From Amoebophrya sp. A120 (Eukaryota; Protista; Dinoflagellata): DNA of 64,000 nt. Each line of letters opens with the position of its first letter. Position 1 is the first letter of the stretch. A program made the position numbers and the translations under genes. Below, one piece after another: positions 10,256 to 62,600 of the stretch. The notes beneath the pieces were generated by a model, which saw nothing but the letters and a program-made list of their open reading frames with translations, ran no database searches and was not told where the DNA came from. Location of the stretch: positions 6,242,476 through 6,306,475 of the forward strand of contig CAJINV010000002.1 of the NCBI GenBank assembly GCA_905178155.1, read 5' to 3'.

Positions 10256-13200
10256 CTAATAGCCCGTCATCGGGGATATTTTCATGCAGTTTGTGATCAG
10301 AATCTTATTCACCGCCTCCATCGTGTTTAAGACCTTGTCTCGCTGCTGACTGAAGTCGGCTTCTGCTTCCCTCGTCGCTATAAACGTCTGCATGTGGAAC
10401 AGGTTCTGCTCATACCTACAGTAATTTTCGGTAGAGTTGGGATTTTATTAGAGAAGTCGCTTTTTGTCACGCCAGACCAAGCATTGCATCCTTATCTTTT
10501 CTTTTCATACAGCAACAGATTCACAAGCCAAGCAATACTGCTTTATCTTGTTTTCCAGCGCCTCCAAGTTCTGGTTCGTTTCGTTATCTGACAACTGCTG
10601 CTTTTTCCCGTCCACTTTTATCTGCAGAAAATGCACCAAGTTGTGCAACTGTGCGAGTCTCTGGTCGTATTTTGCCTTTCTCCTGGTCAACTCGGTTGTC
10701 TGCATCTGCTTCTCCGCACGCATAGAGGTATGCAAGGAAATTTTTGTGCATTTTGACTTTGCGTTGTGTGGTCCCACCTCGTCTCGTCGTGTCCTGAAGC
10801 AGTTCAAGTCTATATATAATTGTCGTGTTGTTGTACGTCATATGTATTGCCATTGTCCTTGTACTGACTGGACATAGAAGTAGGAGTACGACCAGTACAA
10901 GACACGACCTGCATTAAGAAGTTGTAGTACACCTACAATCGATGTGACAGCACAAGTTCGCGTTGGTGACTCAAAGCCATCAAAAGCACTTCGATTTCCC
11001 GACATAGCTGTCCACGTGGAGATACTTTTCTTGTATTTCCTTTTCCATCGTCTGTTGCTTCTGTGCGAGCTGAACCTGTTCGATAATTATTATATATTGC
11101 TTTTTTCAGTCTCTGACACTTCTCTTGCATGTTGAAATAGGGCCTGTTGGCAGAGTATGTGCGAGACACGCAAAAGAACAAATTGTTCTTCAACTGTTCT
11201 CGCCCTAAGAACCTGCGTCCTATCTTCAGTACCAGTTCCTGCGAAATCTTCGCGTCTAGATTTCTAATTTTCTCCAGCTCTTGCTTTCTCTTGTCCACTT
11301 GCCCGATTAATTTTTGATTGGTTGCGGTCGACTGGTCAAGCTGCGACTTTTTGAAATTCAGCTCGTCGTCCAGTTCCTGGCCCAGCTTGTCCAAGTCTCC
11401 CTGAGATTTCTGCCCGAGGTACTTGCTCGTGTCTTCCAGGACGGCTGTTTTTCATGAACATGGATCGCTTGATGAGGTGCATTCACGCATTTCAGTATTA
11501 TTTCGCTGGAACCAAACACGTACTTTCTCCTGGCGAAACAGCAATCTTACTCGAGCCACGCCAAAAGATTTTGATCAGGCGCAGAAAAAAACTATGCGAA
11601 CATCGACAAAGTAGTTGTTGACATCGGTCACCATACCAAGCTCCTCGGTCTAAATTCAGACTTTAAAATCGTTCGGAATTTCAAAACGTACAAAAATCGT
11701 AGATCGAAAATCAAAGGGAGAGCAAAACTAAAACTAAACCAAAACACCACGCCACTGACTCACATGAACAAAATGAAACTTCAAAACTTTCTGCAGCTTC
11801 TAATCGTGTTGAACATATAAAACCCGACCCGATTCTGGAACTTGAACCAATTCGAACGTCCTCGCTGTGTTCTGAGTTTAGACCGCACCAACATAGGTTA
11901 TCAGCCTGCTTTACAGTTTTTAAGTTTGCCACTTTAAAACTTTCGCCAATAGTTTTTATCGCTTTTTGTTTTTAACTTTGAGCCAAACCCCATAAGAATT
12001 ATAGCGTTTTTATATTGGTGACATTTTGCACACAAAAACAAAAACCATGACTCTCAACGCCGGGCAGTGGGTGAACATCGCGGGCGACAGTTTCTTCTAC
12101 CTGCGCAATGAAGGGCGTACGCGGGTGCTGATCCAGATGGCGGACGATGACGACTATGATTTTGTCGCGCTTTCGACGCCTTGGAAAGTTTTCCGCAAGC
12201 ACATGCGCACGAAGATGGAGCCTGACGCCACCACCGCAAAAATGACGGACGCGATGACCTGCATGCTGCTGCTGGCTTACGACAAATATCTGGAGGGGAA
12301 ATTCATGGACAGCGCCGAAGAACGGGCGCAGTGGCAAGATGGTGAGGACGAAACATTTTTTGACATTCCGCCGCCGAAACCGAAAGCGGAAAAGCCGGAG
12401 GAGAAAACGAAAAACACGGAGTCCGCTCCTGTAACTCCTTCCGCCGCTGCTGCCAAGACTATCCCCGGAGTTTATTCGAAAATTGTTGAGCGCCCCCCCG
12501 TGCTTAGCAAAGAACCAACCCCGAAGGACTTCATCGAGGAGGTTGAGCGCTGGGTAGGCATTGTGGGAAAATATTTTTCGGACGAAGCCGACTATCTTTA
12601 CCTGCTTCGCGGTGGGATTGATGATGAAGAACTTCGCCGGAATTTGAAGCATTGCAAAACCTGGGCCACCTTCCTGCCGAAGTTGAAGGAGTTACTTTTA
12701 CCGGATAGCGCTGGGCAGATCTTGGCAGCTTGGAACGATTTCGCGGGTTGTAACCGTGGCGATTCCAATTACAAAAATTTTATCGAGGAATGGGAACGGT
12801 GCAAGCGCGAAATGGAGGCGCAGGGGGTTCCGGTGACGGATCCGCTTGCCGGTGTTCTGCTTTTCACCGCCGCAAACTTACCGGACACGGAGAAAATTGT
12901 TGTTCTGGGTAACCTTCGCGGAGATTTTTCGCTTGACAAAGTGAAGAAAGCGCTGAAGGACTTGGGCGACGATAATCCGGCCGGGGCTACGGTGTGCGCG
13001 ACGGTGACCACCTGCACGCATTGCAAGAAACCGGGGCACGAAGAAAAATCTTGCTGGGTCAAGTATCCCGAGCTGAAGCCGAAGAACAAGGGGAAAGGCA
13101 AAGGCAAGAAAGGGAAGAAGGGGGACAAACCTCAGGGGGAGCCCCGCCGGGCGTGACTAGCGTCGCGATCCGGAGATGAAGAAAATTTGACTAAAGATTT

Positions 13201-16200
13201 TTGCGATCATTCCGAGGGTGGTAGGGATGATCCCGGTGCGAATGCGGAGCGGGAAGGCGGAAAAGAAATTTATCAAACAATCGAGGCGGAGTGCAACTTT
13301 TTAGATATTCGGAAACCGCATGCAGCGCAGTGGTTTCAACCTTTAACCAACGGGAGAAGCTTGCAGACATCCAGGAAGTTTTTACTGGATTCATGTGCGA
13401 CCGCGCACATTATCAAGGATTCGGATTTGATTGGAGACGAAACTAACAGGCTGGCAAACGTAACTTGTGCGAACAAAACGCGCATTGAAAAACAGAAAAT
13501 AGTCCGTCCTACCGCGTTAGAGTCGGAACAACTTGGAACGATCAACCTCGGCGAAGCTATCCACGCTCCTGGTGTGGGCTACAATATTCTATCGCTAAAG
13601 CTTTTGATCGACGATGGGTATAAAGTCAATGAAAACTTTACCCGCCTACGGTTCGGGAAATCGAAGCGCTTCGAGCCGATTACCTGGGACGGGAGCGACT
13701 TGCCGACGCTACAGCTGGCGCCTATCAAAGAACAATATAAATGCTTTACGGTGGAAGCGGTTGAAGACGCAGCGGAAAACGAAGCCGCCGAACTTCACCG
13801 AAGGCACGGCCACACCACGGCGCGGAAGGAATGCAAAATTTGCGCACGACAAAAGGCGCAGCGCAAGCCGCACAAGAAAAACCGAAAGGGACGCGGTAAG
13901 CAGAAGCGCGCGGAGAAATTCGGCGACAAAATTCACGGCGACAGCGTCGGACCGATGCCAAAGACCAAGAATTTTAAGTATTTCAACTCGTTAACCGATG
14001 AGGCTACGCGTTGGGTACAAGCTACGCCGTTGGCAACGCATAGCGCAGCGGAATCACGCAGGGCGCTACGCAGGTGGATCAAGCGAAACAAGCGACCGGA
14101 GACCGTCCGCACAGACAACGGGCGCGAGTTCCTTGCAGAGTTCGAAAAGGAATGCATCGACCACGGGATAGCCATGGAAACTTCAGCACCTTACACGCCG
14201 GAAGAAAACGGGCTGGCTGAAGCTACCAACAAGCGAATCCTGACGGTGTCGCGATGTCTTCTGCAAGATTCCGGATTGCCTGAATCGTATTGGCCGCATG
14301 CTATCGAGTGCGCCGCCTTTCTTCTAAACCGAACGCCGACGAAGATCCTCGGTGGGATTTCGCCATACGAAAAACGTTACGGGGAAGCGCCTGCCCTTGG
14401 GTTCCTTCGCGTTTTCGGGGAAGAATGCTGGTACCGCGATGAGCATCCAAAAACGAGTAAAATGGCGTCCAAGTTTATTCCAGGGATACTTCTCGGATAT
14501 TCAGAAGAATCCAGCGCCTACAAGGTGCAAGACGTGAAGACAAAGAAAATTTACGTCGTTCGCTCCGTCCGGTTTCCGTGTAAACTGACCAAGACCAAGA
14601 AACTGGAAACAGCTAAGGCCGAGCAGATGACGCCAACCGAAGAAATCGCAAACGCCGCAAAAGTTTCCAGCTTGAAAACCAAGGGCGCAGGTATTTCCAG
14701 CTGGAAATACAAAAACTCCGGAGGTTCTCCAGAAACGTCTCTCCTGGGCCCAGTTTGGGCATTTCTCATGGTGCTCTACTCGATCTTCGGGTCGTTATTC
14801 ACGATGCTGGCGGGCGACTTAGATTTTTCATGGGTGTGCCGAAGTAAGAAATCCAGACCGAAGAAACGCATGGTAGCACGGGCGACGCTGCAAGAGGTGC
14901 ATGCATATTTTACGCAGCACCGACCACCACCAGAATGGAAATTTTGGCGAAGACAGCGGAAGGGGCGCGCAAGTCGAAAACTCGGAATTTGTTTCGAAGT
15001 CGATGCGTTCCAAACGGTGGCAGCAGCTAAGCGGGACGACCTCGCGTCGTTCGCATCCAAATACCTTCCCGCAGAATCTATATGGAAGGATGGATATCTC
15101 GACACGCACGAGCAAAAACTGATCGACCGATTAGTACACGAAGCGCATTGCTTCGCCACCGAGCGAGTTCCACTACGTGAGGGGCTCAACGGGCCGAACG
15201 GCGTGGAGTGGCGTGCGGCAGTCGAAAAAGAATTTGACGGATTCAGGAAGCTAGGGGTCTACGAAGAAGTCCCATACTCAGCGATGGGTAAAAACGAAAA
15301 ATCCATACCGCTGATGGTATTGCTGGAGTTGAAGGACAACGGCACACGCAGAAAGGCGCGGGCCGTCGCGTTGGGAAACAAGCAGGCCAACGCCCCGCAG
15401 GATGTCTACTCTCCAGTTTGTACTCAGCTCTGTTTCCGGCTACTTCTACAAAAATTACTATCCGACCCAAAAATGGATTTTGAAATATTCGACATCAGCC
15501 AGGCCTTCCTACATGGAGACCTACGCGAGCGAGTTTTTGTGAAACCCCCTCCGGAATTGGCAAACCCGGAAAAACCGCTCTGGCTACTGAAGAAAAGTCT
15601 TTATGGGCTGACAGTGTCGCCCATGATGTGGAATATCAAATTTGTGGACTGCCTCAAATCGCTGGGGTTTACGCAGGCAGAAAGCGATGCCTGTCTGTTC
15701 ACACGGGGAGGGGTTAGGCTCTGCATCTATGTCGACGATTGTTTTGCAGTAGGACCACCGGACGAACTGAAGAGGGCGAAGGAAGAAATACTTTCGAAGT
15801 TTTCCGGGCGGGTGCAGGACAAAACCGCCGACAGCGTGCAGCAGTTTACGTTTTTGGGTGTCGATGTCAAGTACGACAAAAAGGCGAGAACGATGCACCT
15901 GAAAAATTCCGGGGTCATCGCCCGCATGCTGGACAAGTTCGGCGATCTCGTCGAAGGAAAACACGCTAAGACTCCGATCGTGACTCAATTGGTAGGCCAA
16001 ACGGGAGACACGGCGGAACCAGAGCACGACGAACACCAAGGAAAATTCCCGATGAGGGAAATAGTAGGCGTGATTCAATACTTACAGACTTCCTGCAGGC
16101 CCGATGTCGCTTACGCAGCGAAGGAAGTCGCGAGGTTTTTGGAAAACCCGAACAACGAAGCGAAAAGCGCAGTGCTACGCATCCTGGCCTATTTGCGTGA

Positions 16201-19049
16201 CACGAAAGACCATGGCTTATTTTACACTGCTACGACAGGCAGCGACGCGCGCAAAAACTTGCACGCATACTCCGACGCCGATTTTGCCGGAGAAGTTCCA
16301 GGGCGAAAAAGCACGACAGGGGGAGTCGTACTCTGGAACGGATCGCCAATCTCTTGGAGATCCTCGACGCAGCGACTAGTTTCGATGAGCACCATGGAAG
16401 CGGAACTTATCGCCCTAGCCACGCTAGTGAAGGACTTGAAATTTATCGACTACCTTTGCGCCGATATTTTCGGAGTTGGAGAAGAAGAAAAGAAAAACGA
16501 AAAACGAAGTCCCTGCTTGGTATCCTTTTCGGACAAATTCACAATCCGAACCCGTTGCGACAACGAGGCAGCGATCCAGCATGCTCAGAGGGATTTTGCC
16601 ACAAACCGCACCAAGCACCTAGACATCCGGCATAACTACGTAAAACAGTACTTGGGTGCGCTTGTGGACCTGACATACGTCAAAACCAGTGAGAATCTCG
16701 CTGATGTGTTTACCAAGCCAGTTACGAAGCAAAAGATGGATGCCATCAACATCCGAAAACCGTCCCAGTCGCCGAATCCCGATGAGAAAAAGAAGTAATG
16801 TGAAGTCAAAGTGGTAGTTAGCTCGTGATATACAGCAAGACCATATATCTCTACGTGTAGAATTTTACAAAAATTTCTCTACAAACATAAGACGGACCAG
16901 ATCCGCAAGTTTGAAAAACTCAAGAACTTTATCGAGATTTACTAATTAAAAACTATAGAAGTTATCTGATTCCGACGGAAGTACAAACACAAAGAAAAGA
17001 AGCAAAAACCAAAAACCTAGAAAGTTATGCGAAAAACCTTACAACAGATTTTATTTATTCTTTTCCTTGTGCTTGTTTTCAGTCTTAAGAATTTTACAGA
17101 CCTCGAGACTCAGTTTGAATTTACTAGGCGAATTACACTTACCAGTATAATTCGAGGGGGAGTATGTCGACATCGGTCACCATACCAAGCTCCTCGGTCT
17201 AAATTCAGACTTTAAAATCGTTCGGAATTTCAAAACGTACAAAAATCGTAGATCGAAAATCAAAGGGAGAGCAAAACTAAAACTAAACCAAAACACCACG
17301 CCACTGACTCACATGAACAAAATGAAACTTCAAAACTTTCTGCAGCTTCTAATCGTGTTGAACATATAAAACCCGACCCGATTCTGGAACTTGAACCAAT
17401 TCGAACGTCCTCGCTGTGTTCTGAGTTTAGACCGCACCAACAGTAGTTATCTATACCCAAAACCTCCTGCTGTTTCGCCTGCACCTTCATCTGTTCATCC
17501 TTCAGATTCCTCGGGAAATCTTCCAGAAATTTGCTCATTTCCTGATCTTTGGTAAACAGAACCTCGTATTTCTGCTGGTCCGCACTAGATTGCTCCGCGC
17601 TCGCGTTCACTTCTATCAGCTGCTTCTTGCAGTTCTCCATCTCTTTCCGCGTCTCGCTTATCCTTTCCTCCGTCCGGACGATTTCCTGATTGTTGTCCTT
17701 CACTTTCTGCAGCAGCAGATCCCGCTGCTCGGGGATGGATAATTGCGACTCTTTTGCCTGCTGCTCCAGGTTCTGCAGCTTCGAAAACAGCTGCACCCGC
17801 TTCTCCTTCAGTTCCTGCATGCGGAGCCGCAAAGGCTCCTGCCGCAGCCGCGACTCCCCCATCAGCAGGTTCTGCGAAATCATCTCCACCTCGTGCCGGA
17901 GCTGCGGCAGGCTGATTTTCCGGTTCTCCTGCTGCAGCTGGTCGTATTCGTGCCGTTGGTCCGGGTGCAAGTCGTTTAGTTTCTCCTCGTCCGCACGCGT
18001 AAAAGACTCTAGGATCTGATGCGAGACATTTTTTCTTGTTTCTCATGTTGAAACATGATCTTCAATCAAGGTACTTTTTATCGTCTTTATCCTTGATTCT
18101 CATGTTTTCGTGCTGTGACCACGAAACAAACATCCATGACAAACTCACCCCATGAAAAATTTTAGCCTGTACATCACATACCTCGTCAAACTTTTTTATC
18201 TCCTCTTCGTGTGATTTTTTCTCCAGAAAAATTTGGTCCATCTCCATCCTCTGGGCGTCATTCTGACTCTTCAGCAGCTGGTACATGTACTGCACCTCTT
18301 CCGGCCTCGTGTCCGTGCGCTGCTTGTCCAGGGCCAAATTGTAATCTGCAAGCTCCCCCTCCAAATTTCGGACCGTTTTTATCAACTGCTCATACCTGGT
18401 GATATCAAATGCCGTACAACATTTCCTCTTTGCCACTACTTACTTGCTTTTCAACATAACAATCGTACTTAATCCTTCCTGTCCAATGCCTACAAAGAAT
18501 GCCACGACCGGCATCAACCTTCAAGATTGAGAAATTACAGAAAGTCTCTTTATTCACGACCTTTTCTCCAGCATGGTGAAGGTGTTGTTGTCGTTCTGTA
18601 TTTCCACCATCTCCTGGTTGAATTTCTGGAGCGCGTCCCGCAATTCGTTGTGCTTCCCCCGCAGCTGCGTCATGTAATAGCTCTTGTCGTAAATTTGCCT
18701 CCCGGGCTTCCCCTGTCCCTGGTTCACGTGCACGCCCATCTGCGTGAGCGGCCGGTCCTGCACGCGCACGTCGGTGACAAGACCCACGCCCGGTCCCTGT
18801 CGCATCGCCGCGGTACCTGGTGTCGTAGAAAAATACAAATAGCTTTTCGCTTTTGCTCATAATAAAATCAACCGTAAAAATCAAATGGCACACACCTCGC
18901 TGATCTTCGTCTAAAAACTTACCCATCCGCATCGCACTGGTGCCCATCCGCGAGGCCGGCACCGGGGCCCGCAAGCCTCCCGGGGTCGCAGCGCCGGACA
19001 TGCCGCGGCCGGCGGACTGCATGCCCCGGGACTGGGGCCGGTTATTCAT
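10256..19049 (-). CDS. IFT74: Intraflagellar transport protein 74, multi-exon; one intron carries a copia LTR element
   Basis: MNNRPQSRG... N-terminus, then VQDRPLTQMG, RQIYDKSYY, LEGELADYNLALDK, coiled-coil exons, LSDNETNQNLEALENKIKQYEQNLFHM and stop TAG at 10256-10258. GT-AG intron 11445-17456 gives QQEVLAVLEDTSK. Confidence 0.9.
10729..11006. mobile_element. Decayed TAT...ATA introner in IFT74
   Basis: Degenerate inverted repeat (tatgcaaggaaatttttgtgcattttga vs tatgtcgggaaatcgaagtgcttttga). Removing the element plus 5 nt restores the frame (HVDSMRAEKQ). TSD no longer recognisable. Confidence 0.55.
11616..11893 (+). repeat. 5' LTR
   Basis: TGTTG...CAACA. Matches 17165-17442 except at position 4 (T vs C) by manual comparison. 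Confidence 0.97.
11894..11910 (+). promoter_or_regulatory. Primer-binding site of half-tRNA type (taGGTTATCAGCC)
   Basis: Lies immediately after the 5' LTR. Resembles the GGTTATGGGCCC/GGTTATGAGCC sites of copia/Ty5, which pair with a tRNA anticodon arm rather than the CCA end. Confidence 0.6.
12047..13156 (+). CDS. gag: Copia Gag with CCHC zinc knuckle
   Basis: ATG at 12047, CTHCKKPGHEEKSC knuckle, ends at TGA 13154-13156. Confidence 0.92.
   Translation: MTLNAGQWVNIAGDSFFYLRNEGRTRVLIQMADDDDYDFVALSTPWKVFRKHMRTKMEPDATTAKMTDAMTCMLLLAYDKYLEGKFMDSAEERAQWQDGEDETFFDIPPPKPKAEKPEEKTKNTESAPVTPSAAAAKTIPGVYSKIVERPPVLSKEPTPKDFIEEVERWVGIVGKYFSDEADYLYLLRGGIDDEELRRNLKHCKTWATFLPKLKELLLPDSAGQILAAWNDFAGCNRGDSNYKNFIEEWERCKREMEAQGVPVTDPLAGVLLFTAANLPDTEKIVVLGNLRGDFSLDKVKKALKDLGDDNPAGATVCATVTTCTHCKKPGHEEKSCWVKYPELKPKNKGKGKGKKGKKGDKPQGEPRRA
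13157..16798 (+). CDS. pol: Copia Pol (protease, integrase, reverse transcriptase, RNase H), in frame with gag after a single UGA
   Basis: Protease LLDSCAT; integrase HGD / RTDNGREF / NGLAE (DDE); RT DISQAFL and YVDD; RNase H YSDADFAG, EAE and ADVFTK. No internal stops. Confidence 0.95.
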   Translation, partial: LASRSGDEENLTKDFCDHSEGGRDDPGANAEREGGKEIYQTIEAECNFLDIRKPHAAQWFQPLTNGRSLQTSRKFLLDSCATAHIIKDSDLIGDETNRLANVTCANKTRIEKQKIVRPTALESEQLGTINLGEAIHAPGVGYNILSLKLLIDDGYKVNENFTRLRFGKSKRFEPITWDGSDLPTLQLAPIKEQYKCFTVEAVEDAAENEAAELHRRHGHTTARKECKICARQKAQRKPHKKNRKGRGKQKRAEKFGDKIHGDSVGPMPKTKNFKYFNSLTDEATRWVQATPLATHSAAESRRALRRWIKRNKRPETVRTDNGREFLAEFEKECIDHGIAMETSAPYTPEENGLAEATNKRILTVSRCLLQDSGLPESYWPHAIECAAFLLNRTPTKILGGISPYEKRYGEAPALGFLRVFGEECWYRDEHPKTSKMASKFIPGILLGYSEESSAYKVQDVKTKKIYVVRSVRFPCKLTKTKKLETAKAEQMTPTEEIANAAKVSSLKTKGAGISSWKYKNSGGSPETSLLGPVWAFLMVLYSIFGSLFTMLAGDLDFSWVCRSKKSRPKKRMVARATLQEVHAYFTQHRPPPEWKFWRRQRKGRASRKLGICFEVDAFQTVAAAKRDDLASFASKYLPAESIWKDGYLDTHEQKLIDRLVHEAHCFATERVPLREGLNGPNGVEWRAAVEKEFDGFRKLGVYEEVPYSAMGKNEKSIPLMVLLELKDNGTRRKARAVALGNKQANAPQDVYSPVCTQLCFRLLLQKLLSDPKMDFEIFDISQAFLHGDLRERVFVKPPPELANPEKPLWLLKKSLYGLTVSPMMWNIKFVDCLKSLGFTQAESDACLFTRGGVRLCIYVDDCFAVGPPDELKRAKEEILSKFSGRVQDKTADSVQQFTFLGVDVKYDKKARTMHLKNSGVIARMLDKFGDLVEGKHAKTPIVTQLVGQTGDTAEPEHDEHQGKFPMREIVGVIQYLQTSCRPDVAYAAKEVARFLENPNNEAKSAVLRILAYLRDTKDHGLFYTATTGSDARKNLHAYSDADFAGEVPGRKSTTGGVVLWNGSPISWRSSTQRLVSMSTMEAELIALATLVKDLKFIDYLCADIFGVGEEEKKNEKRSPCLVSFSDKFTIRTRCDNEAAIQHAQRDFATNRTKHLDIRHNYVKQYLGALVDLTYVKTSENLADVFTKPVTKQKMDAINIRKPSQSPNPDEKKK
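17154..17164 (+). promoter_or_regulatory. Polypurine tract
   Basis: GAGGGGGAGTA directly before the 3' LTR. Confidence 0.85.
17165..17442 (+). repeat. 3' LTR
   Basis: TGTCG...CAACA, 278 bp, followed by TSD GTAGT. Confidence 0.97.
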
Positions 19050-22083: not shown

Positions 22084-25011
22084 TCAGATGTAAATTTCGC
22101 GCTCGGTCGGAAGCTGCTGCTGGACAAGCACCTCCGGGTCAGGCGTTTTTCCAGCAGTGAAAATCCCATTCCCAGCGACGGCGTTGCTGTGGTCGCGGCC
22201 ATTATCACTTTTGTACACCTCCGGCACAATGAGCTCCCGCTTTGCGGTGACTTCGATCGGTTGGATGTTCCGCTGCAACGCGGTCTGTGGCCTGTAGTAG
22301 TCCGGAATGACGTAGTCTTCTAGAAAAACCTTCATCTCGTCCTGCGTCACGGGTATGGGAAGGAAAAGCCGCGTTCGTGCGACACTGCCATCAGGGATGA
22401 GATAATTTCATAGATCTTGCAGAACTCTAAATAAAATTAGAAATCTGTTCCACCTCGTTGTGCATGAAATGTGAACACACATGATCTACTCCTCGTTGTC
22501 TCTTCTGCAATGCCCAATCTCATACACTTGTTCACGTGCTGAGGGTTTCGGGCTTCGTCCTGTGTGCCCCGACGTACGTAATCTTCAAATTTGTTGACCG
22601 ATTTTCGCGATCGCGATGAAGATCAGCAGAAATCACATGGCAACACGCAGAAGTGTGTGATTTTCCACTACAATAACGTCCATGTGGCCCCTAGGCGTCG
22701 TGCGGAAGTGAACCTTCTTGGCTTCTACTATTGTGCGCAACCCGAAGGTGTCATTGGTGTACCTGGGATGTTTTTTTGGTTTTTTCCCCGAATCAATTAT
22801 TCGACAGCGACATGCACATGAAGGTACACATAAATCTTCATGATCAACGTGCAACGCGAATGAATTACTAGTTAGTCTCTGTGCGAAGATGACTTCTTGA
22901 AAAGAGTCAAACCAGGATTGGTGTGGCATGGTGTAGATGCTGTCGTATGTGTTTCCGTAGAATGCCCACCACTCCGCGTCCCTTGGAAGAATAATGTTGT
23001 CTTCCAAGCCCTTGACGAAGACAAATTTCTTGGTCACGTTGAACTTGCTGTCCACCTTGTGCACGGGCATGTCGTCCCGATCTTCCCCGTTCATCCTCGC
23101 CATTTCACTGTTCTGCCGGTACGTCGGCTCGGATATCTGAATATTTTGAGTCGGTTTATTTTTAAAATACGCTCGCTGTTCTACTTCCCGACCGAGCTGA
23201 CCAGAAATATTTCGCATAAGAGAGAAGTGCCTCCAGGTCCAACCACCCAAGACCAGAAGAAGAACGAGGTCTTCACACAGCAATCAAAGAAATCATCATC
23301 ATCATCATCATCATATTTGTGCTTGTCCTTGATGTTTCTTCATCATCATTTAACTTATGAGTGGACGGGCACCCAGTACTGCTTTATCCGGAATGACCCG
23401 AAAGTCACTCCGCTTGCCAGGTATTTTCCTGGCCTTTGTAGAAAGTGAATATCGAAATAAGTAATTTCCAACACCTGTATGGGGTTCCGGAAGTATCCGC
23501 AGGGCGTGATCCTGTCAACCAACAAGGAACTGTGGCACAGCGTTCCCTATGAAATGTAAAAATGTCTGGGTCTGGAAGAGTGTGAACTTGTCATGCAGGT
23601 TTACCATGACCCTTGAGGTCTGGAATGCGGGGCCTAGCATGGCAGAGTCTGAGAGGTCTCTTTCATGCCTATCCTGCATGAGAAACTCCCTCCTAACTTG
23701 GTCGAAAGTGGGCAGCTTTTGGCACTCATGCAACACAGATTTTTGCATGATTCGGATTTAGCATGACAAGTTGCAACCTTCCAGACCCAGACATTTTTGC
23801 ATTTGATATTCCCGCCAGGTTGCTGATGGGGCGGTAGATTTCCCGGAGCGCTAAGGAGAGCGGGTCCAGCCCCGGGACGGCCCCCTCTCCGCCGAGCACG
23901 CCGTGGAAGGCCATCCAGGTTAACACGGGCGGGTCGTTGAACTTCTGTACGTAACCGCGCAGAATGCCGTTGCCCTGCGAAAAGCCCAAGGCGATGAACC
24001 CCTTCCGCAACTTGGGGTCCTGTCGCACTTTTTTCCGCCATAGGTCGATGCTGGACTTGAAGCCGTAAAACCAGCTCGCGACGTACTGTTGCACCTGCGT
24101 GTCGCCTCCGGTCGAAATGCAGGTCACGTAGGTATTCAGGTAGTTGCGAAGGAACGACTCCAGCTCGATGCGCTGAAACTCGTAACAGGAGGAAGAAATA
24201 CCGTGGGAAATCACGATCTGATAATGTGAATCTTAACACTATTTCCCAACAATCAATTCGTCGTCTTTTACAAATGGCCGCCACAACAAAGCAGTGTAGT
24301 GTAAGTACTCCCCCGCCTCCGCAGTAGATCTACTATCTACGTCAAGAAATGCTAAGCAAAACCTCAAATATTAACCTACAGCAGCAATACTGGCGGAATG
24401 AGTCCCTCCGGAATATTCAACGGGTTCTTCGGCCCTGGCGGGCCCATGTAGGGCAGCGTGAAGTTCTCCCTGGGGATGAGATTTTCGTGAATCCAGTCTA
24501 TCAGTTGTTTTTTCTCCTGCAGCGACCCGTCGACAGAGATGCGTTCCAGGTTTGCTTTCGTTAAAACATCGTTGTTAGCCCATTTTTCTGCTGAAGAAGG
24601 TAGCGATGTCTTCATCTCTGGTGTAGTTGTAACAGCGGGGGCCTGTCGATCGATGGTTTTTAGATCGGATAAATGTGAAACATCTCGCTTTTCTTTCGCA
24701 GCCGCGGTGGAAGGTGAAGATTCAGATTTACTCGCTCGTGCTGTTCTCGTTGCTTTTGATAGCTGGCTCTTTGTTTCTCCGTGTTGCACCACATCCTGCT
24801 CCGCTAGGCCGGCTACGCTGGCACCAGTAGTTGCGAGCTCCGCAGACGCTGGCCCATCTCGTCGTCCACTCGCTTGCGAAGAGGACGCTGCAGTGCTCCT
24901 TGTTTGCAGTGGCTTGAAGAAGTTCTCCCCTGCAACGAGAGTCGCAGCTTCTTGAGACACAAGCAAAAGCGACGAAACACGAAGCGTACGCCGGTGAGGG
25001 AGAAACACCAT
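22084..25011 (-). CDS. Palmitoyl-protein thioesterase (PPT1-like), multi-exon
   Basis: SHGISSSC, catalytic GFSQG, LEDNII (Asp) and DTFGL...RGHM (His). Hydrophobic N-terminus. Exons joined by GT-AG introns and two TAT...ATA introners. Confidence 0.88.
22354..22675. mobile_element. Decayed TAT...ATA introner in the PPT gene
   Basis: Termini tatgggaaggaaaa / ttttccactacaata, flanks acggg and acgtc. Removing the element plus 5 nt gives GHMDVTQDEMK in frame. Confidence 0.55.
23548..23808. mobile_element. Introner/MITE copy A (261 bp), TSD TTCCC
   Basis: TIR tatgaaatgtaaaaatgtctgggtctggaag / cttccagacccagacatttttgcatttgata. Excision plus one TSD gives NLAGTLCHSSLLVDRITPCGYFRNP. Confidence 0.93.
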
Positions 25012-38300: not shown

Positions 38301-41300
38301 GGCCGGAACTTGTGACGAACCGTAAGCATGATCCCTCGTGGGGAAGGACCAGACGCCGCGCACTTCGTCATAAACAGGCGGCTCCGAGGACTCTGTCTGG
38401 ATGGGCACCATCATGGCGGCAATTTTCTCGTCGCTGACCAACCCCAGCTGCAGCAAGCCCGCAGTCAGCAGCGACCCAACGACAAAGCCGCCGCCCCGGC
38501 TCCGGATGTCCTGGCGCCGGGCCTTCATATCAACTGCAAAAATGTCTGGGTCTGGAAGAATGCCAGACTTGTCCTGCAGGTTTTCCATGACCCATGAGGT
38601 CTGGTATGTAGGACAGAGCATGACAGATTCTGTGAGAGTTCTATCATGCCTATCCTGCATGAGAAACTGGCTCTCGATTAGGTCAAAAGTGGACAGCTTC
38701 TGGCGATCATGCAACACAAATTTTTACATGAGTCAGGTTTAGCATGACAAGTTGCTTTGTTCCAGACCCAGACACTTTTGCATTTGATACTCCACGTGCT
38801 TCCGCATCTCGGCCCGCCGCTGTTCCTGCGCGCGAAAGCGCTCGCGATGGTTTCTTTCCTGGTCCACAAGTGGCATGGTGGCCTCATCGCGGTGCCGCTC
38901 GGTTTTCCGGAAGGCCTTCTCTTCCTCCTCCTCGAGGGAGGTGAGTAGATCGTCGATGAAGTTGTTGACTGTTTGACGCGGGATGTCCCAGCTGGTGTCC
39001 ACGTTGTCCAAGTATGCACATGCGCTGTAGTTAACAATTCCCCTGGCCGCGCCGTAGGGCACGTCGTCCCGGGGAGTGGAGATCCCATTCGGGACCGGAA
39101 ACTCGTCCGAAAATTTAGAAACAAACGGCCGCTGGTGGCTGGAGTCAGTACTTCCTGCTGCTGCTGAGCTTGAACTAAGCGCGTTGGCGTTGTTAGTGAG
39201 CACGAAGTTGTTGTTCGCGGATGAAATAAAGTAGCTGTTTGTACTAGACCCCCCGCCGCCCGCCAGCAACGCTTCAAAAAGTTGCTTGACTTTCTTCTCT
39301 ATCAAATGTAAAAATGTCTGGGTCTGGAAAAGTGGAACTTGTAATGCGTGTCATGCATTCCTGGACAATCTGTGTTGCATGAGCAGCAAAACAGAGGCTT
39401 TCTTTGTCATGCAAAAACGCAATTTGCAATGCGTGCTAGGCATCAGCAGGCCTCTCAAAAACTTGTCATGCTTGGCTGCCATTGGAAGCGCTTCAATCAT
39501 GCGCAATTCAGCATCACAAGTTTCCACACCCAGACATTTTTACATTTGATATTCTCCAAATGCAGCCGCATGCTGTGCTGCAGCTCCACGTCTATCAAAT
39601 GTAAAAGTGTCTGAGTCTGGAAACTTGTGATGCTGGGTGGCGTCTCATGATGAGGCTACAAATGCTGGCTCAGCATGACAAGTTTCTGAGCTTCTCGGTG
39701 TTGCCTATTCTGCATGACAAACTGCGCTTCTGCATCACAGAAAAACGGAGCTCTTGGGTAACGCGCATGACAGATTTAAGAGTTATGTCAGACAAGCATG
39801 ACAAACATGAATTCTTCCAGACCCAGACATTTTTGCAGTTCATAACATCTAGCGTGAGCCGATTTTTTTCGCGAATGTTTTTCACGTAGCGGCCATCCGC
39901 GAGGTAGTAGCCCTGCGAATCGGCACGCTCACCGCGCCTGACGTGAAGTGGATCCTCTTCTACGTACTCCGCAACCGGAATTGTGCAAAAGCCGTTCGTG
40001 TGTTTCTTCTTCCCGACTTGTACACCTTCCGACGCGCTCGGAACATCATGACCGTGTAGATGCCAGAACTCCGCACTTTCGTGCGGGGCCACCTGCGCAA
40101 TGTGCAGACAGGAGTCTATGGATGTGTCAGGATTGAAATCGACAAAGTTGAAATAACTTGTAATGCAGAAAATGGATGAAAGTTGCAATCCAGTTGCCAA
40201 GTGGCGCATGACAAATTTGGGTAGAGCCGAAATCCAGTCTGTCATGCTGTTTGGGTATAGGAAGACGCTTTTTTCATGCTACTTTAGCAGCTCTATTTCT
40301 ACCCCGAAACAGGCTCACAATCTGCCCCCCTTGCCTACCCTGCAAGACAGACACTTTCTGCGTTGCATTTTATGCATGACAAACTATTTCAACTTTGACG
40401 ATTTCAAACCTGACAGTTCCATAGAGTCCCCGCCTAGCGTAGCGACCTCGACGGAAAGTTTGGGCAGGCGGGACAGCGTATCAAGTGTAAAAGTGTCTGG
40501 GTCTGGAAGATTCTGACACTTGTCATGCACGTTTTGCATGAGCCATGATGTCTGTGATGCATACCCTAGCAATACAGATTCCTTGAGGGCTTCTTGATGC
40601 CTATTCCGCATGACAAATGCCTTCTCAGCGTAGCAAAAATTGCATTCCCTTTGGTACTCATGCAATACAGATCTTTTTGGAATCCAAATGCAGCATCACA
40701 AGTTGCATTCTTCCAGACCCAGACATTTTTACATTTGATACAGCGGCGTCGTGGTGAGATGCTTTTTGTGCAAAGCAACGACCTTCAATAGCATTTCCTG
40801 GCCAATCTTCGTCAAGTCATCACGGGCCTCATACATGGCAGCATTGAACTTCCCGACCGCAGCAGGGCGTTGCACGACGTTGCGCTTCTCCGGGTAGAAA
40901 TCCATCTTTCGGATGGTGTCAATAGACTGAGAAGTTTCTTCTCTCAACCGCGCGACTTCGGCGAAGTCGGAAAGTTGTGAGACACCTGTCGCAGTTTTGC
41001 CTCCACCGGCCTGGTACAGTTTTTGCTTTTTCTCGTACTTCCGCAGCAAATCCGCAGCCCGCTGCACAGGGCCGCAGTCAAACACAAACTGGTTGCTCCT
41101 GACGCAGTGAAATTTTGGTGCAGCCTGGGCGGTAGTTTTGATGAGCGCAGTGGATTCATCTGAAGACAGTTGCGACGAGTTTTGCTCACCTGCATCGTCC
41201 GTTTTCCGCTTTTTTGAGGCTGGCCCAGTTGTGGTGGTGTCCTCATGTTGGTTCGTAGAAGTGGGGTCGCATCTAGTTATACTATCCGCACTACCTGCAG

Positions 41301-59600: not shown

Positions 59601-62600
59601 CTTCTTCAGAAGATTGCTCAAGTCGGCGTAAATAGCATCCATCTGCTCCGTCAGCAGCGCTTCCAACTGTCCGAAGCACTCGTGGTAGCTGCTGTTGCTG
59701 TACTGCCTTTCCAGTTCCGGGTCCTTGAAATAGATCCGCGCCACGTAGTCGATCACCTGCCGAATGCGGTGGTGCTCGTACTTTTCGAACAGGTCCCGCC
59801 CGTCGTAAAAGTTATTTTCGCCCTCCACGGGGTACCCGGTTACGTAGTGCCCCATCCCCACGACGAACGGGTTCTGGTCGTTGGTCTTCCAGGCCTTGTG
59901 GTGCTCGTTCGGCGTCTCGATGTGCCGCAGGTCGCCGGACTGCAGATCCTGGTCCGTCGGAAATTCGTTGCTCTGTTCCACGATCTGGTCTGTGTCATTG
60001 CGCTATGGCACGGAAATAAAACACCGCTTCACTGCAGAATGCCAAGTGTAACAAAGTAAGTACTTGGATGCAACTGCACCAAACTCTTGATAGTCGTGAA
60101 GTTCGTGTGCAAGTAAGAAGAATCATGATATGCCAAGGAACCTACTACTTTCAGGAGCTACTACGTATTTCTTCCTCACCTGCATCTGTAGGAACGCACG
60201 TACTTATATTAGAGTGCTTCTTGTTCGCCATGCGGAGCAAGGAACTCTCCGATCCAGACAACTAGCGCAGTTGCAGCCAAATTAGCACAGTGAAGATTGT
60301 TCGTTGTGTCTATCCGATATGTGCAGCGCGAGAGTCAGCAGCTGCGTGTCTCCGGACACGGCGGCGGCTCCGAGCTCAGGCCGCACGTCACCTGCAGTTG
60401 AAAAGTGGGAAATATTGAACCTTTGACTATGTCAATCATACCTGAGACCAACGTAAGTGACTCAAGCATGTGGCAAAAAACGTGATTTCCCGACGAGGAC
60501 ATCAAAAGTGCATTCTGCCAAGCTGCAAGAATACCGTAATTCGTGCTCCCTGGCGAAAATGGCTGTTGAATGGCTCTCGGGCTGCCACCGAAGTCCGTGG
60601 CGCCCTTCAAAAACGCCTCTCTTCGTCGGCCCGGGTCGTGCCTCGCCGCCTCCTCGTCGGAGTCCTCTGCTGTATCCCTTGCAAACAAGTAGTTCTTTTG
60701 CTGTCGGCTATGCACAAAGGACCGACTGTATATCATTTTCCCAAAAGTATTATATTGCTGCCATCTACAACAAGGTACTATGAATAGAGGTTTCTTATCC
60801 TGCAGTCATGTAGCGACAAGAGAAGATGAACTCCATTGTACTACCAGGGATAAGCGTATGACTTCATTAGTTCCGACACTGCCAAAGCGTCTTCTTTAAA
60901 CTGCCGGTCGTGTTGGCCCAAGTCTGCGAGCGTATGAGGGAGGAAAAGGTCCTGCTCAGTAGTAACATGCACAGACTTGTTGTCTACAACAACGGGGCCA
61001 AAAGAATCATGACGCCCAGCGATTACATTTTTAAACAGGACAGCACTCCATGCAGTGCATTCCCCTCTGTGTGTCTCTCAATCGTCCCATCCGAGTAATT
61101 CTGCCTCTGCGGCTGTTCTTTCATGACAAATAAACATCTGAATGTTAGTGTCAGACCATTTTCCGCATGATAAAGCTTTCTCGCAGCTAATTGCCGCTGC
61201 TTGATGTCTTCGTCCCGCGATTGCTGTGGCGCTGTGCCCCCTTCAGCGGCCTCGGCCGGTATCAACGCGATCGCGCCGTCCTCGCCCTGTTGCTGCTGTT
61301 CTAGCTGCTTCGCGTGAAACGAAGACAAGTCGATTACGGGCGGGTTTTCCTCGGTCGCGTCCACATTCATCATTTGGATGGGCCCCGAGTCTTCCGGATT
61401 CGGAACGAACGAGGTTGAGCCGGATCCGGTGGCCCCACCGGCTCCTGTACTGCCGTGCGCCCCATCATTCTCTTCCCCGAGCACGGGCTCCGCGCGGTCC
61501 GCTTCCAGGGGCGCCTGTGGTGCGGAGGAGCCGGTAGCGGGCTCATCTCCTCCCCCCGCTGTACTCGCTGCGGCCGCCTCGGGTGCTTGTTCTGCTTTTG
61601 CGGCATCGGGGGCGGCGCCTTCTCCGGGGGTCGTTGTCAATCCTAGTCCGCCTTCGACGCTCGTCGCGGACACCGCCGGCGCTGCCTCGTCGGAACCCGC
61701 GGGTGGTGATAGTTGTTGGTGACCGTCCTCGTCTACCCCGGTTGATGTAAGGAAAACCGCGCCGGCGAGGCCAACCTCGTCCCCCTTGGCCGGCTCTTTG
61801 TCGTTGGACGCGTTCTGCGGTGGCCGCGAGCTGGCGCTGTTCTCCTCGTTCTCGGGGAAGTACTCCTGCGTTTGGCCCCCGGCAGACGTGGACGATCGCG
61901 GGTACACCGTGGTCGCGCCGTCGTCCTCCGATCGGGAGGAGGACGCGGCGCGGTTCCCCGGCTGCGCAGCCTCCTCCCTATCCAGTGCAAAAGCATCGTA
62001 CTAGTATAAATTGCATTACAAATACAAATTAGCCCAGCATTACAAATTGAATTTGTAATGCTGATTCACCTTGACAAAGAAATTTGTAATGCATGAATGC
62101 AATTACTACGAATACGATACTTTTGCACAGGATACTCCCCGCCCTCCACCGACAACTCCGGCTGCGCCTCCGCGATGGTCACCTGTTGCGACGTACCGGC
62201 AGACTGTTGTCTTACCAAATCTTCTATCAAATGCAAATATGTCTGGCTCTGGAAACTTGTAATGCTGAGCTGGCAATAGTGAATTCTCTGTAATGCACAG
62301 CCAGGCATGAGAAATAAGTATTTGCGTTGCTTAGTATTGCCTATTGCGCTTTCCGCATGACAAACTGCGCTTTGCATGACAAGCAAAAGAGTCTCTTCTT
62401 GGACGCGCATCACAAAATCTTCAGTCATGCCAGACAAGCATGACAAATCTTGCAATCTTCCAGACCCAGACATATTTGCAATTCATATCTTCGTCGGGGT
62501 GGGCGGCGCCGTCGTCTGGCGGCACGAACGAGCTGCTGCTCCCGCCGATTTGTTCGCTCCCGTGGATTATGCATTGTAAGTATGCCTGGACCCACCTCTG

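What the first reader, a model, noticed from the sequence alone, without database searches (positions are those of the whole stretch)
13151..13241. Copia gag-pol joined by a UGA-CUAG stop-codon readthrough signal with a downstream stem
Seen in sequence: gag ends GCG TGA CTA G (TGA 13154-13156), and the same frame continues without a stop into pol. Pol has no in-frame ATG before the protease motif. Downstream there is a hairpin gatcattcc (13205-13213) / gggatgatc (13224-13232) and a possible outer stem tcgc..ccgg (13163-13173) / ccgg.gcga (13233-13241). Established: UGA-CUAG is a leaky-stop context used by alphaviruses and several vertebrate genes. Most copia elements use a single ORF or a frameshift, with Candida Tca2 a known UGA-readthrough exception. 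Inference: programmed readthrough sets the Gag:Gag-Pol ratio in this alveolate element.
Basis: partly seen in the sequence, partly recalled or inferred. Interest (0 to 1): 0.8.

Follow-up and report, generated by a model that had tools for sequence, protein, structure and literature searches.

The report
Conserved leaky stop in plankton retrotransposon
A young jumping gene, likely from a parasitic marine dinoflagellate, has one stop codon (TGA followed by CTAG) between its shell-protein and enzyme genes, and a very distant relative has the same seven letters there, so the enzymes are likely made by occasional ribosome read-through, a known trick not yet found described for this group.

Summary
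An intact Ty1/copia element (11616-17442; 278-bp LTRs with 1 mismatch; 5-bp target duplication) has gag ending at TGA 13154-13156, then CTAG and a same-frame 1213-codon pol with no in-frame ATG until the integrase. A short-read contig shows the same letters, so it is not an assembly error. A scan keyed on an integrase motif found one clade member with its junction in view (L049; gag 22%, pol 33% identical). It also has TGA-CTAG in frame 0 at the gag end, with unalignable flanks. Nine of 9 related gag proteins, including one from Amoebophrya A25, are called apart from pol. A copy-specific nonsense mutation is therefore very unlikely and programmed readthrough is the best reading (about 0.85), untested in RNA or protein. 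The downstream stem is not supported: its stability is ordinary for the element and L049 lacks it. L049 also has a second, unexplained in-frame TAA. The strategy is known (Tca2; fission-yeast Tj1/Tosmo with TGA-CT), and this scan noted TGA-separated copia elements before in two other genomes, one a diatom. I found no paper on it in alveolates. New member of a known kind.

The parts
11611..11615 (.). Target-site duplication GTAGT, left copy (right copy 17443-17447)
11616..11893 (+). 5' LTR, 278 bp, TG...CA; 1 mismatch to the 3' LTR (young insertion)
11894..11912 (+). Putative primer-binding site; the same 19 letters follow the 5' LTR of L049
   Evidence: primer tRNA not identified (no tRNA gene in the window)
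12047..13156 (+). gag ORF, 369 aa, with a CCHC zinc knuckle (about 13013-13054) and a Lys/Gly-rich tail; ends at TGA
   Evidence: no Pfam hit; 43% identical to Amoebophrya A25 P0040
13154..13160 (+). TGA-CTAG: in-frame gag stop in a readthrough-favouring context; identical in relative L049
   Evidence: same letters in a short-read contig
13160..13245 (+). Predicted three-way stem structure 3' of the stop (pair probabilities about 0.76-0.98 in a 107-nt fold); not exceptional, not conserved, role unsupported
13157..16798 (+). pol, same frame as gag, 1213 codons: acidic spacer, protease (weak Pol_BBD hit aa 75-155, E 0.0035), integrase (rve aa 257-348, SH3 aa 408-474), RT (RVT_2 aa 711-942), RNase H; copia domain order; first in-frame ATG at 13955; ends TAA
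17154..17162 (+). Polypurine tract GAGGGGGAG before the 3' LTR
17165..17442 (+). 3' LTR

Best explanation
The TGA at 13154-13156 is the inherited end of gag in an intact copia retrotransposon, and it is likely a programmed leaky stop that lets a minority of ribosomes continue into pol. Shown: one in-frame TGA followed by CTAG separates a 369-aa Gag from a 1213-codon pol that lacks its own ATG before the protease, and a distant relative has the same seven letters at the same place. Inferred: most ribosomes on the LTR-driven genomic RNA stop and release Gag; a few percent insert an amino acid at UGA (Trp, Cys or Arg by analogy with other UGA readthrough) and make a roughly 1,580-aa Gag-Pol that is packaged through its Gag part and cut by the protease. 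Inferred: the signal is mainly the primary sequence UGA-CUAG; the 3' stem is at most a lineage-specific helper.
For: (1) L049, found by an integrase motif about 1.1 kb from the junction, has gag ...GGKRK TGA CTAG in frame 0 with pol. It shares the putative primer site and falls in the same RT clade (SH-aLRT 98-100, quick tree). Flanks agree at only 22 of 60 (upstream) and 31 of 116 (downstream) positions. Rough chance of TGA plus CTAG at a gag stop: 1/3 x 0.0037, about 1e-3 (my assumption of equal stop use). 2 of 2 clade junctions seen as DNA have it. (2) All 9 hits over the gag capsid region (P0040-44, P0052, P0071, P0074, P0083) are stand-alone proteins of 240-426 aa with no protease. In A25, gag and pol are separate gene models on one 1.06-Mb contig and the pol model starts at an internal Met in the integrase. 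Two pairs from different contigs end at the same residue (P0041/P0114, P0043/P0115). (3) The element is young and otherwise undamaged and a short-read contig matches 11864-17198 with 0 differences. (4) 25 of 25 Trp codons of the element are TGG, so TGA is not an ordinary sense codon here. (5) UGA-CUAG is a documented readthrough context (PMC13517186, passages), and the TGA of Tj1, which lies in a TGA-CT context, is needed for transposition (PMC4600332 passages; bioRxiv 2022.12.06.519325 passages).
Against: Only two junctions were seen as DNA. The protein-level relatives show a gag stop but not its identity, context or frame, and 2 of the 9 (P0044, P0071) end inside the knuckle and may be damaged. 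L049 has a second in-frame stop (TAA) 270 nt after the TGA and before the protease, so that copy cannot make Gag-Pol by one readthrough; I read it as decay (4 of 256 LTR mismatches) but did not show this. The 3' stem is absent in L049. In Tca2 the 300 nt around UGA gave no readthrough in S. cerevisiae reporters (PMC2194720, abstract, Background and Discussion), so anatomy can mislead. No RNA or ribosome data cover the junction.
Confidence: 0.85

Rival explanations
1. A low-frequency splice removes the stop (or a spliced or trans-spliced pol mRNA is made); Amoebophrya has many non-canonical introns.
For: 12 frame-keeping GT-AG pairs between the knuckle and the protease could remove the TGA in the window. 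CTAG ends in an AG. An intron could also explain L049's second stop. Non-canonical introns and spliced-leader trans-splicing are reported for Amoebophrya (PMC7789003 passages). Plant copia elements set the Gag excess by splicing (PMC5580714 abstract).
Against: L049 has 0 GT donors between knuckle and TGA, and only 1 pyrimidine in the 30 nt before the stop, a poor acceptor. Splicing would not require frame 0, TGA or CTAG. The spacer is open and acidic-coding in both elements. A leader added at CTAG would meet nine out-of-frame ATGs and no in-frame ATG before the protease.
Confidence: 0.07
2. Pol is made apart from Gag, from a weak internal promoter or by reinitiation at a near-cognate codon.
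For: In-frame TTG at 13187 and other near-cognate codons precede the protease. Tca2 has a minor junction promoter (PMC2194720).
Against: It does not explain the conserved TGA-CTAG or frame 0; short out-of-frame ORFs start at 13176, 13227 and 13242; a free Pol would need another way into the particle (established retroelement biology, recalled; also argued in PMC2194720 Discussion).
Confidence: 0.04
3. The TGA is a nonsense mutation of this copy (for example TGG to TGA) in a single-ORF element.
For: The element seems to be a single full-length copy (contig depth 25.5, like other contigs at 22-24), so no sister copy could be compared. 6 of 6 unrelated copia loci with the junction in view run from knuckle to protease without a stop (L034, L037, L042, L047, L058, L062).
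Against: The same TGA-CTAG in L049 and separate gag proteins in 9 of 9 relatives. A search for longer, fused forms found none (weak by the tool's own statement).
Confidence: 0.03
4. TGA is read as an ordinary amino acid in this host (Trp as in Amoebophrya sp. ex Karlodinium veneficum, or selenocysteine), so gag-pol is one ORF.
For: One Amoebophrya strain reads UGA as Trp depending on position (PMC6394959 abstract).
Against: The element has 25 TGG and no other TGA; nine long minus-strand ORFs of the window (7,012 codons, 55 TGG) are open under the standard code and pol ends in TAA; the ORFs were chosen for being open, so this control is partly circular. Rfam finds no SECIS or other family in the element.
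Confidence: 0.01

Closest known systems
Tca2 of Candida albicans (Ty1/copia, gag-UGA-pol)
   Same: Copia element with gag and pol in one frame separated by UGA; pol is expressed from the gag-pol RNA (PMC2194720; abstract, Background, Discussion read).
   Different: Tca2 has a purine spacer and a predicted pseudoknot, and its junction gave no readthrough in yeast reporters. Here the conserved feature is UGA-CUAG and no structure is conserved. No Tca2 sequence was compared, so relatedness is untested.
Fission-yeast Ty3/gypsy elements Tj1, Tcry1, Tosmo1-3
   Same: In-frame TGA at the gag-pol junction followed by CTA or CTG; pol has no AUG; the stop is needed for Tj1 transposition (bioRxiv 10.1101/2022.12.06.519325 and PMC4600332, passages read).
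   Different: Gypsy rather than copia order; they also conserve GAA before the stop, whereas here the 5' codon differs (GCG vs AAA) and the fourth letter G of CTAG is kept; different host kingdom, so likely independent origin (inference).
Type II viral readthrough signals (alphavirus UGA-CUA/CUAG) and mammalian UGA-CUAG genes
   Same: Same stop and 3' tetranucleotide; a 3' structure is only conditionally needed for UGA-CUA (PMC13517186, passages read).
   Different: Here it joins gag to pol of a retrotransposon; efficiency is unmeasured in an alveolate.
Moloney murine leukaemia virus gag-UAG-pol
   Same: Same logic: about 5% readthrough sets Gag:Gag-Pol (PMC2194720 Background; PMC13517186 table).
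   Different: UAG plus an obligatory pseudoknot; no pseudoknot was tested or shown here.

Membership tests
Ty1/copia LTR retrotransposon | Two LTRs (TG...CA) with a short target-site duplication | tested here: met
   278-bp LTRs, 1 mismatch, TSD GTAGT
Ty1/copia LTR retrotransposon | Domain order protease-integrase-RT-RNase H with an RVT_2-type RT | tested here: met
   Pfam Pol_BBD (weak), rve, SH3_retrovirus, RVT_2 in that order; RNase H region aligns with copia relatives
Ty1/copia LTR retrotransposon | Primer-binding site and polypurine tract | tested here: inconclusive
   PPT present; 19 letters after the LTR are shared with L049, but the primer tRNA was not identified
Gag-stop-pol readthrough retroelements (Tca2, Tj1/Tosmo, MuLV type) | Single in-frame stop at the end of gag, pol in frame 0 without its own AUG | tested here: met
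Gag-stop-pol readthrough retroelements (Tca2, Tj1/Tosmo, MuLV type) | Stop and context conserved in relatives | tested here: met
   2 of 2 DNA junctions TGA-CTAG; 9 of 9 gag relatives separate from pol; small sample, and L049 has a second stop
Gag-stop-pol readthrough retroelements (Tca2, Tj1/Tosmo, MuLV type) | Gag-Pol fusion made by ribosomal readthrough at a few percent | not testable with these tools
   needs a reporter, ribosome profiling or peptide data
Structure-stimulated readthrough (MuLV pseudoknot, alphavirus extended stem-loop) | Conserved 3' RNA structure starting about 8-16 nt after the stop | tested here: not met
   stability ordinary; not predicted in a 300-nt fold; absent in L049, -4.9 kcal/mol over 110 nt; covariation untestable with two unalignable sequences
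Amoebophrya ex K. veneficum-type code (UGA = Trp) | Stop triplets common inside coding frames | tested here: not met
   1 TGA in about 1,580 codons of the element, 25 TGG

The most novel reading that the evidence does not exclude
A deep, undescribed copia clade of marine parasitic alveolates sets its Gag:Pol ratio by the bare seven-letter signal UGA-CUAG, with no RNA structure, arrived at independently of alphaviruses, mammals and fission-yeast gypsy elements. It would show that this leaky context works across the eukaryote tree down to alveolates, and give a natural reporter of UGA leakiness in the very genus in which one strain has turned UGA into a position-dependent Trp codon.
Probability: 0.4. 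Interest if true: 0.58.

Novelty: new member of a known kind. Interest (0 to 1): 0.42.

Why it matters
Gag-pol stop readthrough is a minority strategy among copia elements, and the one studied case (Tca2) resisted explanation. Here the conserved signal is the classic UGA-CUAG, held across 22-33% protein identity, which gives a clean test of whether this context is leaky in alveolates. It also matters for annotation: gene callers split these elements into a gag and a truncated pol, and they look broken when they are probably intact. The mechanism itself is known.

Tried and rejected
No whole genome is held for this window, so sister copies could not be listed. Run search: no RNA holder listed. 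Three raw RNA runs laid 0 reads (no test, the organism was not shown to be in them). Four more contig runs covered only scraps, none the junction. Viral-contig scans found no clade member (one search gave 33 weak integrase-core matches at 22-41% identity, not examined further). The metagenome scan gave 23 loci: 13 matched pol; 2 belong to the clade (L049; L036, whose contig starts in the integrase); 4 are other copia elements, 7 look gypsy-like by eye and 10 had no match. The prokaryote-genome scan gave 7 loci, 3 of them unrelated copia elements. A word-based gag search found 1 weak hit; the search for longer fused forms found none (weak). Rfam gave one chance-level match near the junction and none over the element. 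A predicted pairing of +1..+5 with about +290 in both elements lies at the edge of the folded window and inside the ribosome footprint; treated as an artefact. Slippery-looking T runs in L049's spacer do not bypass its TAA, because both other frames close sooner. The tree is the quick version (the careful search did not finish) and P0102 was dropped for lack of an RT match. Gao et al. 2003 on gag-pol recoding signals is not held, so I know it only as cited; it may list more readthrough elements. No supplements were read.
Full report
Observation. The letters GCG TGA CTA G lie at 13151-13160. Under the standard code one frame holds an ORF ending at this TGA (gag, ATG 12047, 369 aa) and, directly after it, a stop-free run of 1213 codons to TAA at 16798. 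Pfam places a weak protease-type domain, integrase core, SH3 and RVT_2 in copia order in the second part. The first in-frame ATG is at 13955, inside the integrase, and nine out-of-frame ATGs come before it. The element spans 11616-17442, with 278-bp LTRs that differ at 1 position, a GTAGT target duplication and a polypurine tract. A short-read contig of run X1 covers 11864-17198 with no difference, at a depth like that of other contigs (25.5 against 22-24), so the stop is in the DNA and the element is probably a single full-length copy (X1 may be the source sample, so this excludes an assembly error only).

Host. No genome is held. The closest named relatives are from Amoebophrya sp. A25: pol 57% identical overall and gag 43%. 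The window also carries dispersed inverted-repeat elements of the introner type (label recalled and from PMC7789003 passages). A Syndiniales host is therefore likely but inferred.

Relatives as proteins. A full HMMER search with gag plus protease gave 74 hits. Nine match across the capsid region; all nine are stand-alone proteins of 240-426 aa without protease. Seven end in a basic tail like the window's; two (P0044, P0071) end inside the knuckle and may be damaged. Two pairs of cluster members from different contigs end at the same residue, so those ends are real stops rather than contig edges. In A25, gag and pol are separate gene models two numbers apart on one contig, and the pol model begins at an internal Met. 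A search for longer fused forms found none, which is weak evidence. These data show that the gag stop is inherited but not which stop or frame is used.

Relatives as DNA. I scanned metagenome contigs with a pattern for a clade-typical integrase motif about 1.1 kb from the junction, so the scan was blind to the junction (23 loci). Two loci belong to the clade. L036 starts inside the integrase. L049 is a complete element with 256-bp LTRs (4 mismatches), a TATTT target duplication and the same 19 letters after the 5' LTR. Its gag is 22% and its pol 33% identical to the window's, and it groups with the window, A25, L036 and P0082 in an RT-RNase H tree (SH-aLRT 100 for the five, quick tree). Its gag ends ...GGKRK TGA CTAG G, in frame 0 with pol (L049 minus strand, 5187-5181). 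The neighbouring DNA agrees at only 22 of 60 positions upstream and 31 of 116 downstream, so the seven letters are an island of identity. A rough chance figure is 1e-3 (CTAG frequency 0.0037, times one of three stops). Six of six unrelated copia loci with the junction in view have no stop between knuckle and protease. Against the simple picture: L049 has a second in-frame stop, TAA, 270 nt further on and before the protease. It is the only TAA or TAG among 1,612 codons, which fits a lesion in an older copy, but I could not check other copies.

The stem. A helper role in this lineage is not excluded, but nothing supports it.

Mechanism. Most likely, ribosomes on the genomic RNA usually stop at UGA and release Gag, and a few percent read through to make Gag-Pol. 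UGA-CUAG is a documented leaky context in which a 3' structure is only conditionally needed (PMC13517186, passages). Splicing is the main rival in a genus rich in odd introns: 12 GT-AG pairs could remove the stop in the window, but none exists in L049, whose upstream region is almost pure purine, and splicing would not conserve TGA, CTAG and frame together. Code reassignment, known for one Amoebophrya strain (PMC6394959 abstract), is unlikely because the element has 25 TGG codons and no other TGA. No RNA data reached the junction, so readthrough is inferred, not shown.

Comparison and novelty. Gag-UGA-pol is known for the copia element Tca2, where the bypass mechanism stayed unresolved (PMC2194720; abstract, Background, Discussion), and for the fission-yeast gypsy elements Tj1, Tcry1 and Tosmo1-3, which conserve TGA-CT (bioRxiv 10.1101/2022.12.06.519325, passages); removing the Tj1 stop abolishes transposition (PMC4600332, passages). 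Plant copia elements use splicing instead (PMC5580714, abstract). Searches for this arrangement in dinoflagellates or alveolates found no paper (listings only; open-access library; Gao et al. 2003 not held). Earlier notes of this scan report TGA-separated copia families in two other genomes, one a diatom with TGA-CTAG (unchecked), and no look-alike of this pol. Verdict: real, conserved, most likely programmed UGA readthrough; a new member of a known kind; interest 0.42.

Noticed in passing
window 10936-18439 (minus strand): The element sits antisense inside a host IFT74 (intraflagellar transport) gene: the pieces on either side match IFT74 residues 257-442 (E 8e-10) and 462-518 (E 7e-4). It appears to lie in an intron, about 14 nt from a GT donor near 17456, enlarging it by 5.8 kb; splicing not tested.
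   Followed up: partly
window about 14750-14830; also P0001, P0055, P0082: A hydrophobic, membrane-helix-like stretch of about 25 residues followed by a basic segment lies between integrase and RT in the window and in three clade members. Unusual for copia pol by my recall; not tested.
   Followed up: no
L049 4917-4915 (minus strand): Second in-frame stop (TAA) 270 nt after the gag TGA and 13 codons before the protease motif; decay, sequencing error or a second recoding site.
   Followed up: partly
window 11894-11912 and L049: The 19 letters after the 5' LTR are identical in two elements whose LTRs are otherwise unlike; their complement resembles a tRNA anticodon arm, as in half-tRNA priming (recalled, untested).
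   Followed up: no
window 11616-11776, 14693-14985, 16864-17052 against run X1 contigs: One 5,871-base contig carries an LTR-like piece and an inverted piece of the integrase-RT linker (119 letters identical); another contig, also seen in two probable RNA runs, matches the 3' untranslated part at about 80%. Possibly derived non-autonomous or related elements.
   Followed up: no
window 23543-23822, 38523-40754, 62220-62501: A dispersed family of about 280-bp elements with terminal inverted repeats, like the introners described for Amoebophrya.
   Followed up: no
L058, L062, L063: Copia retrotransposons on short contigs filed in bacterial MAGs, likely eukaryotic contamination.
   Followed up: no
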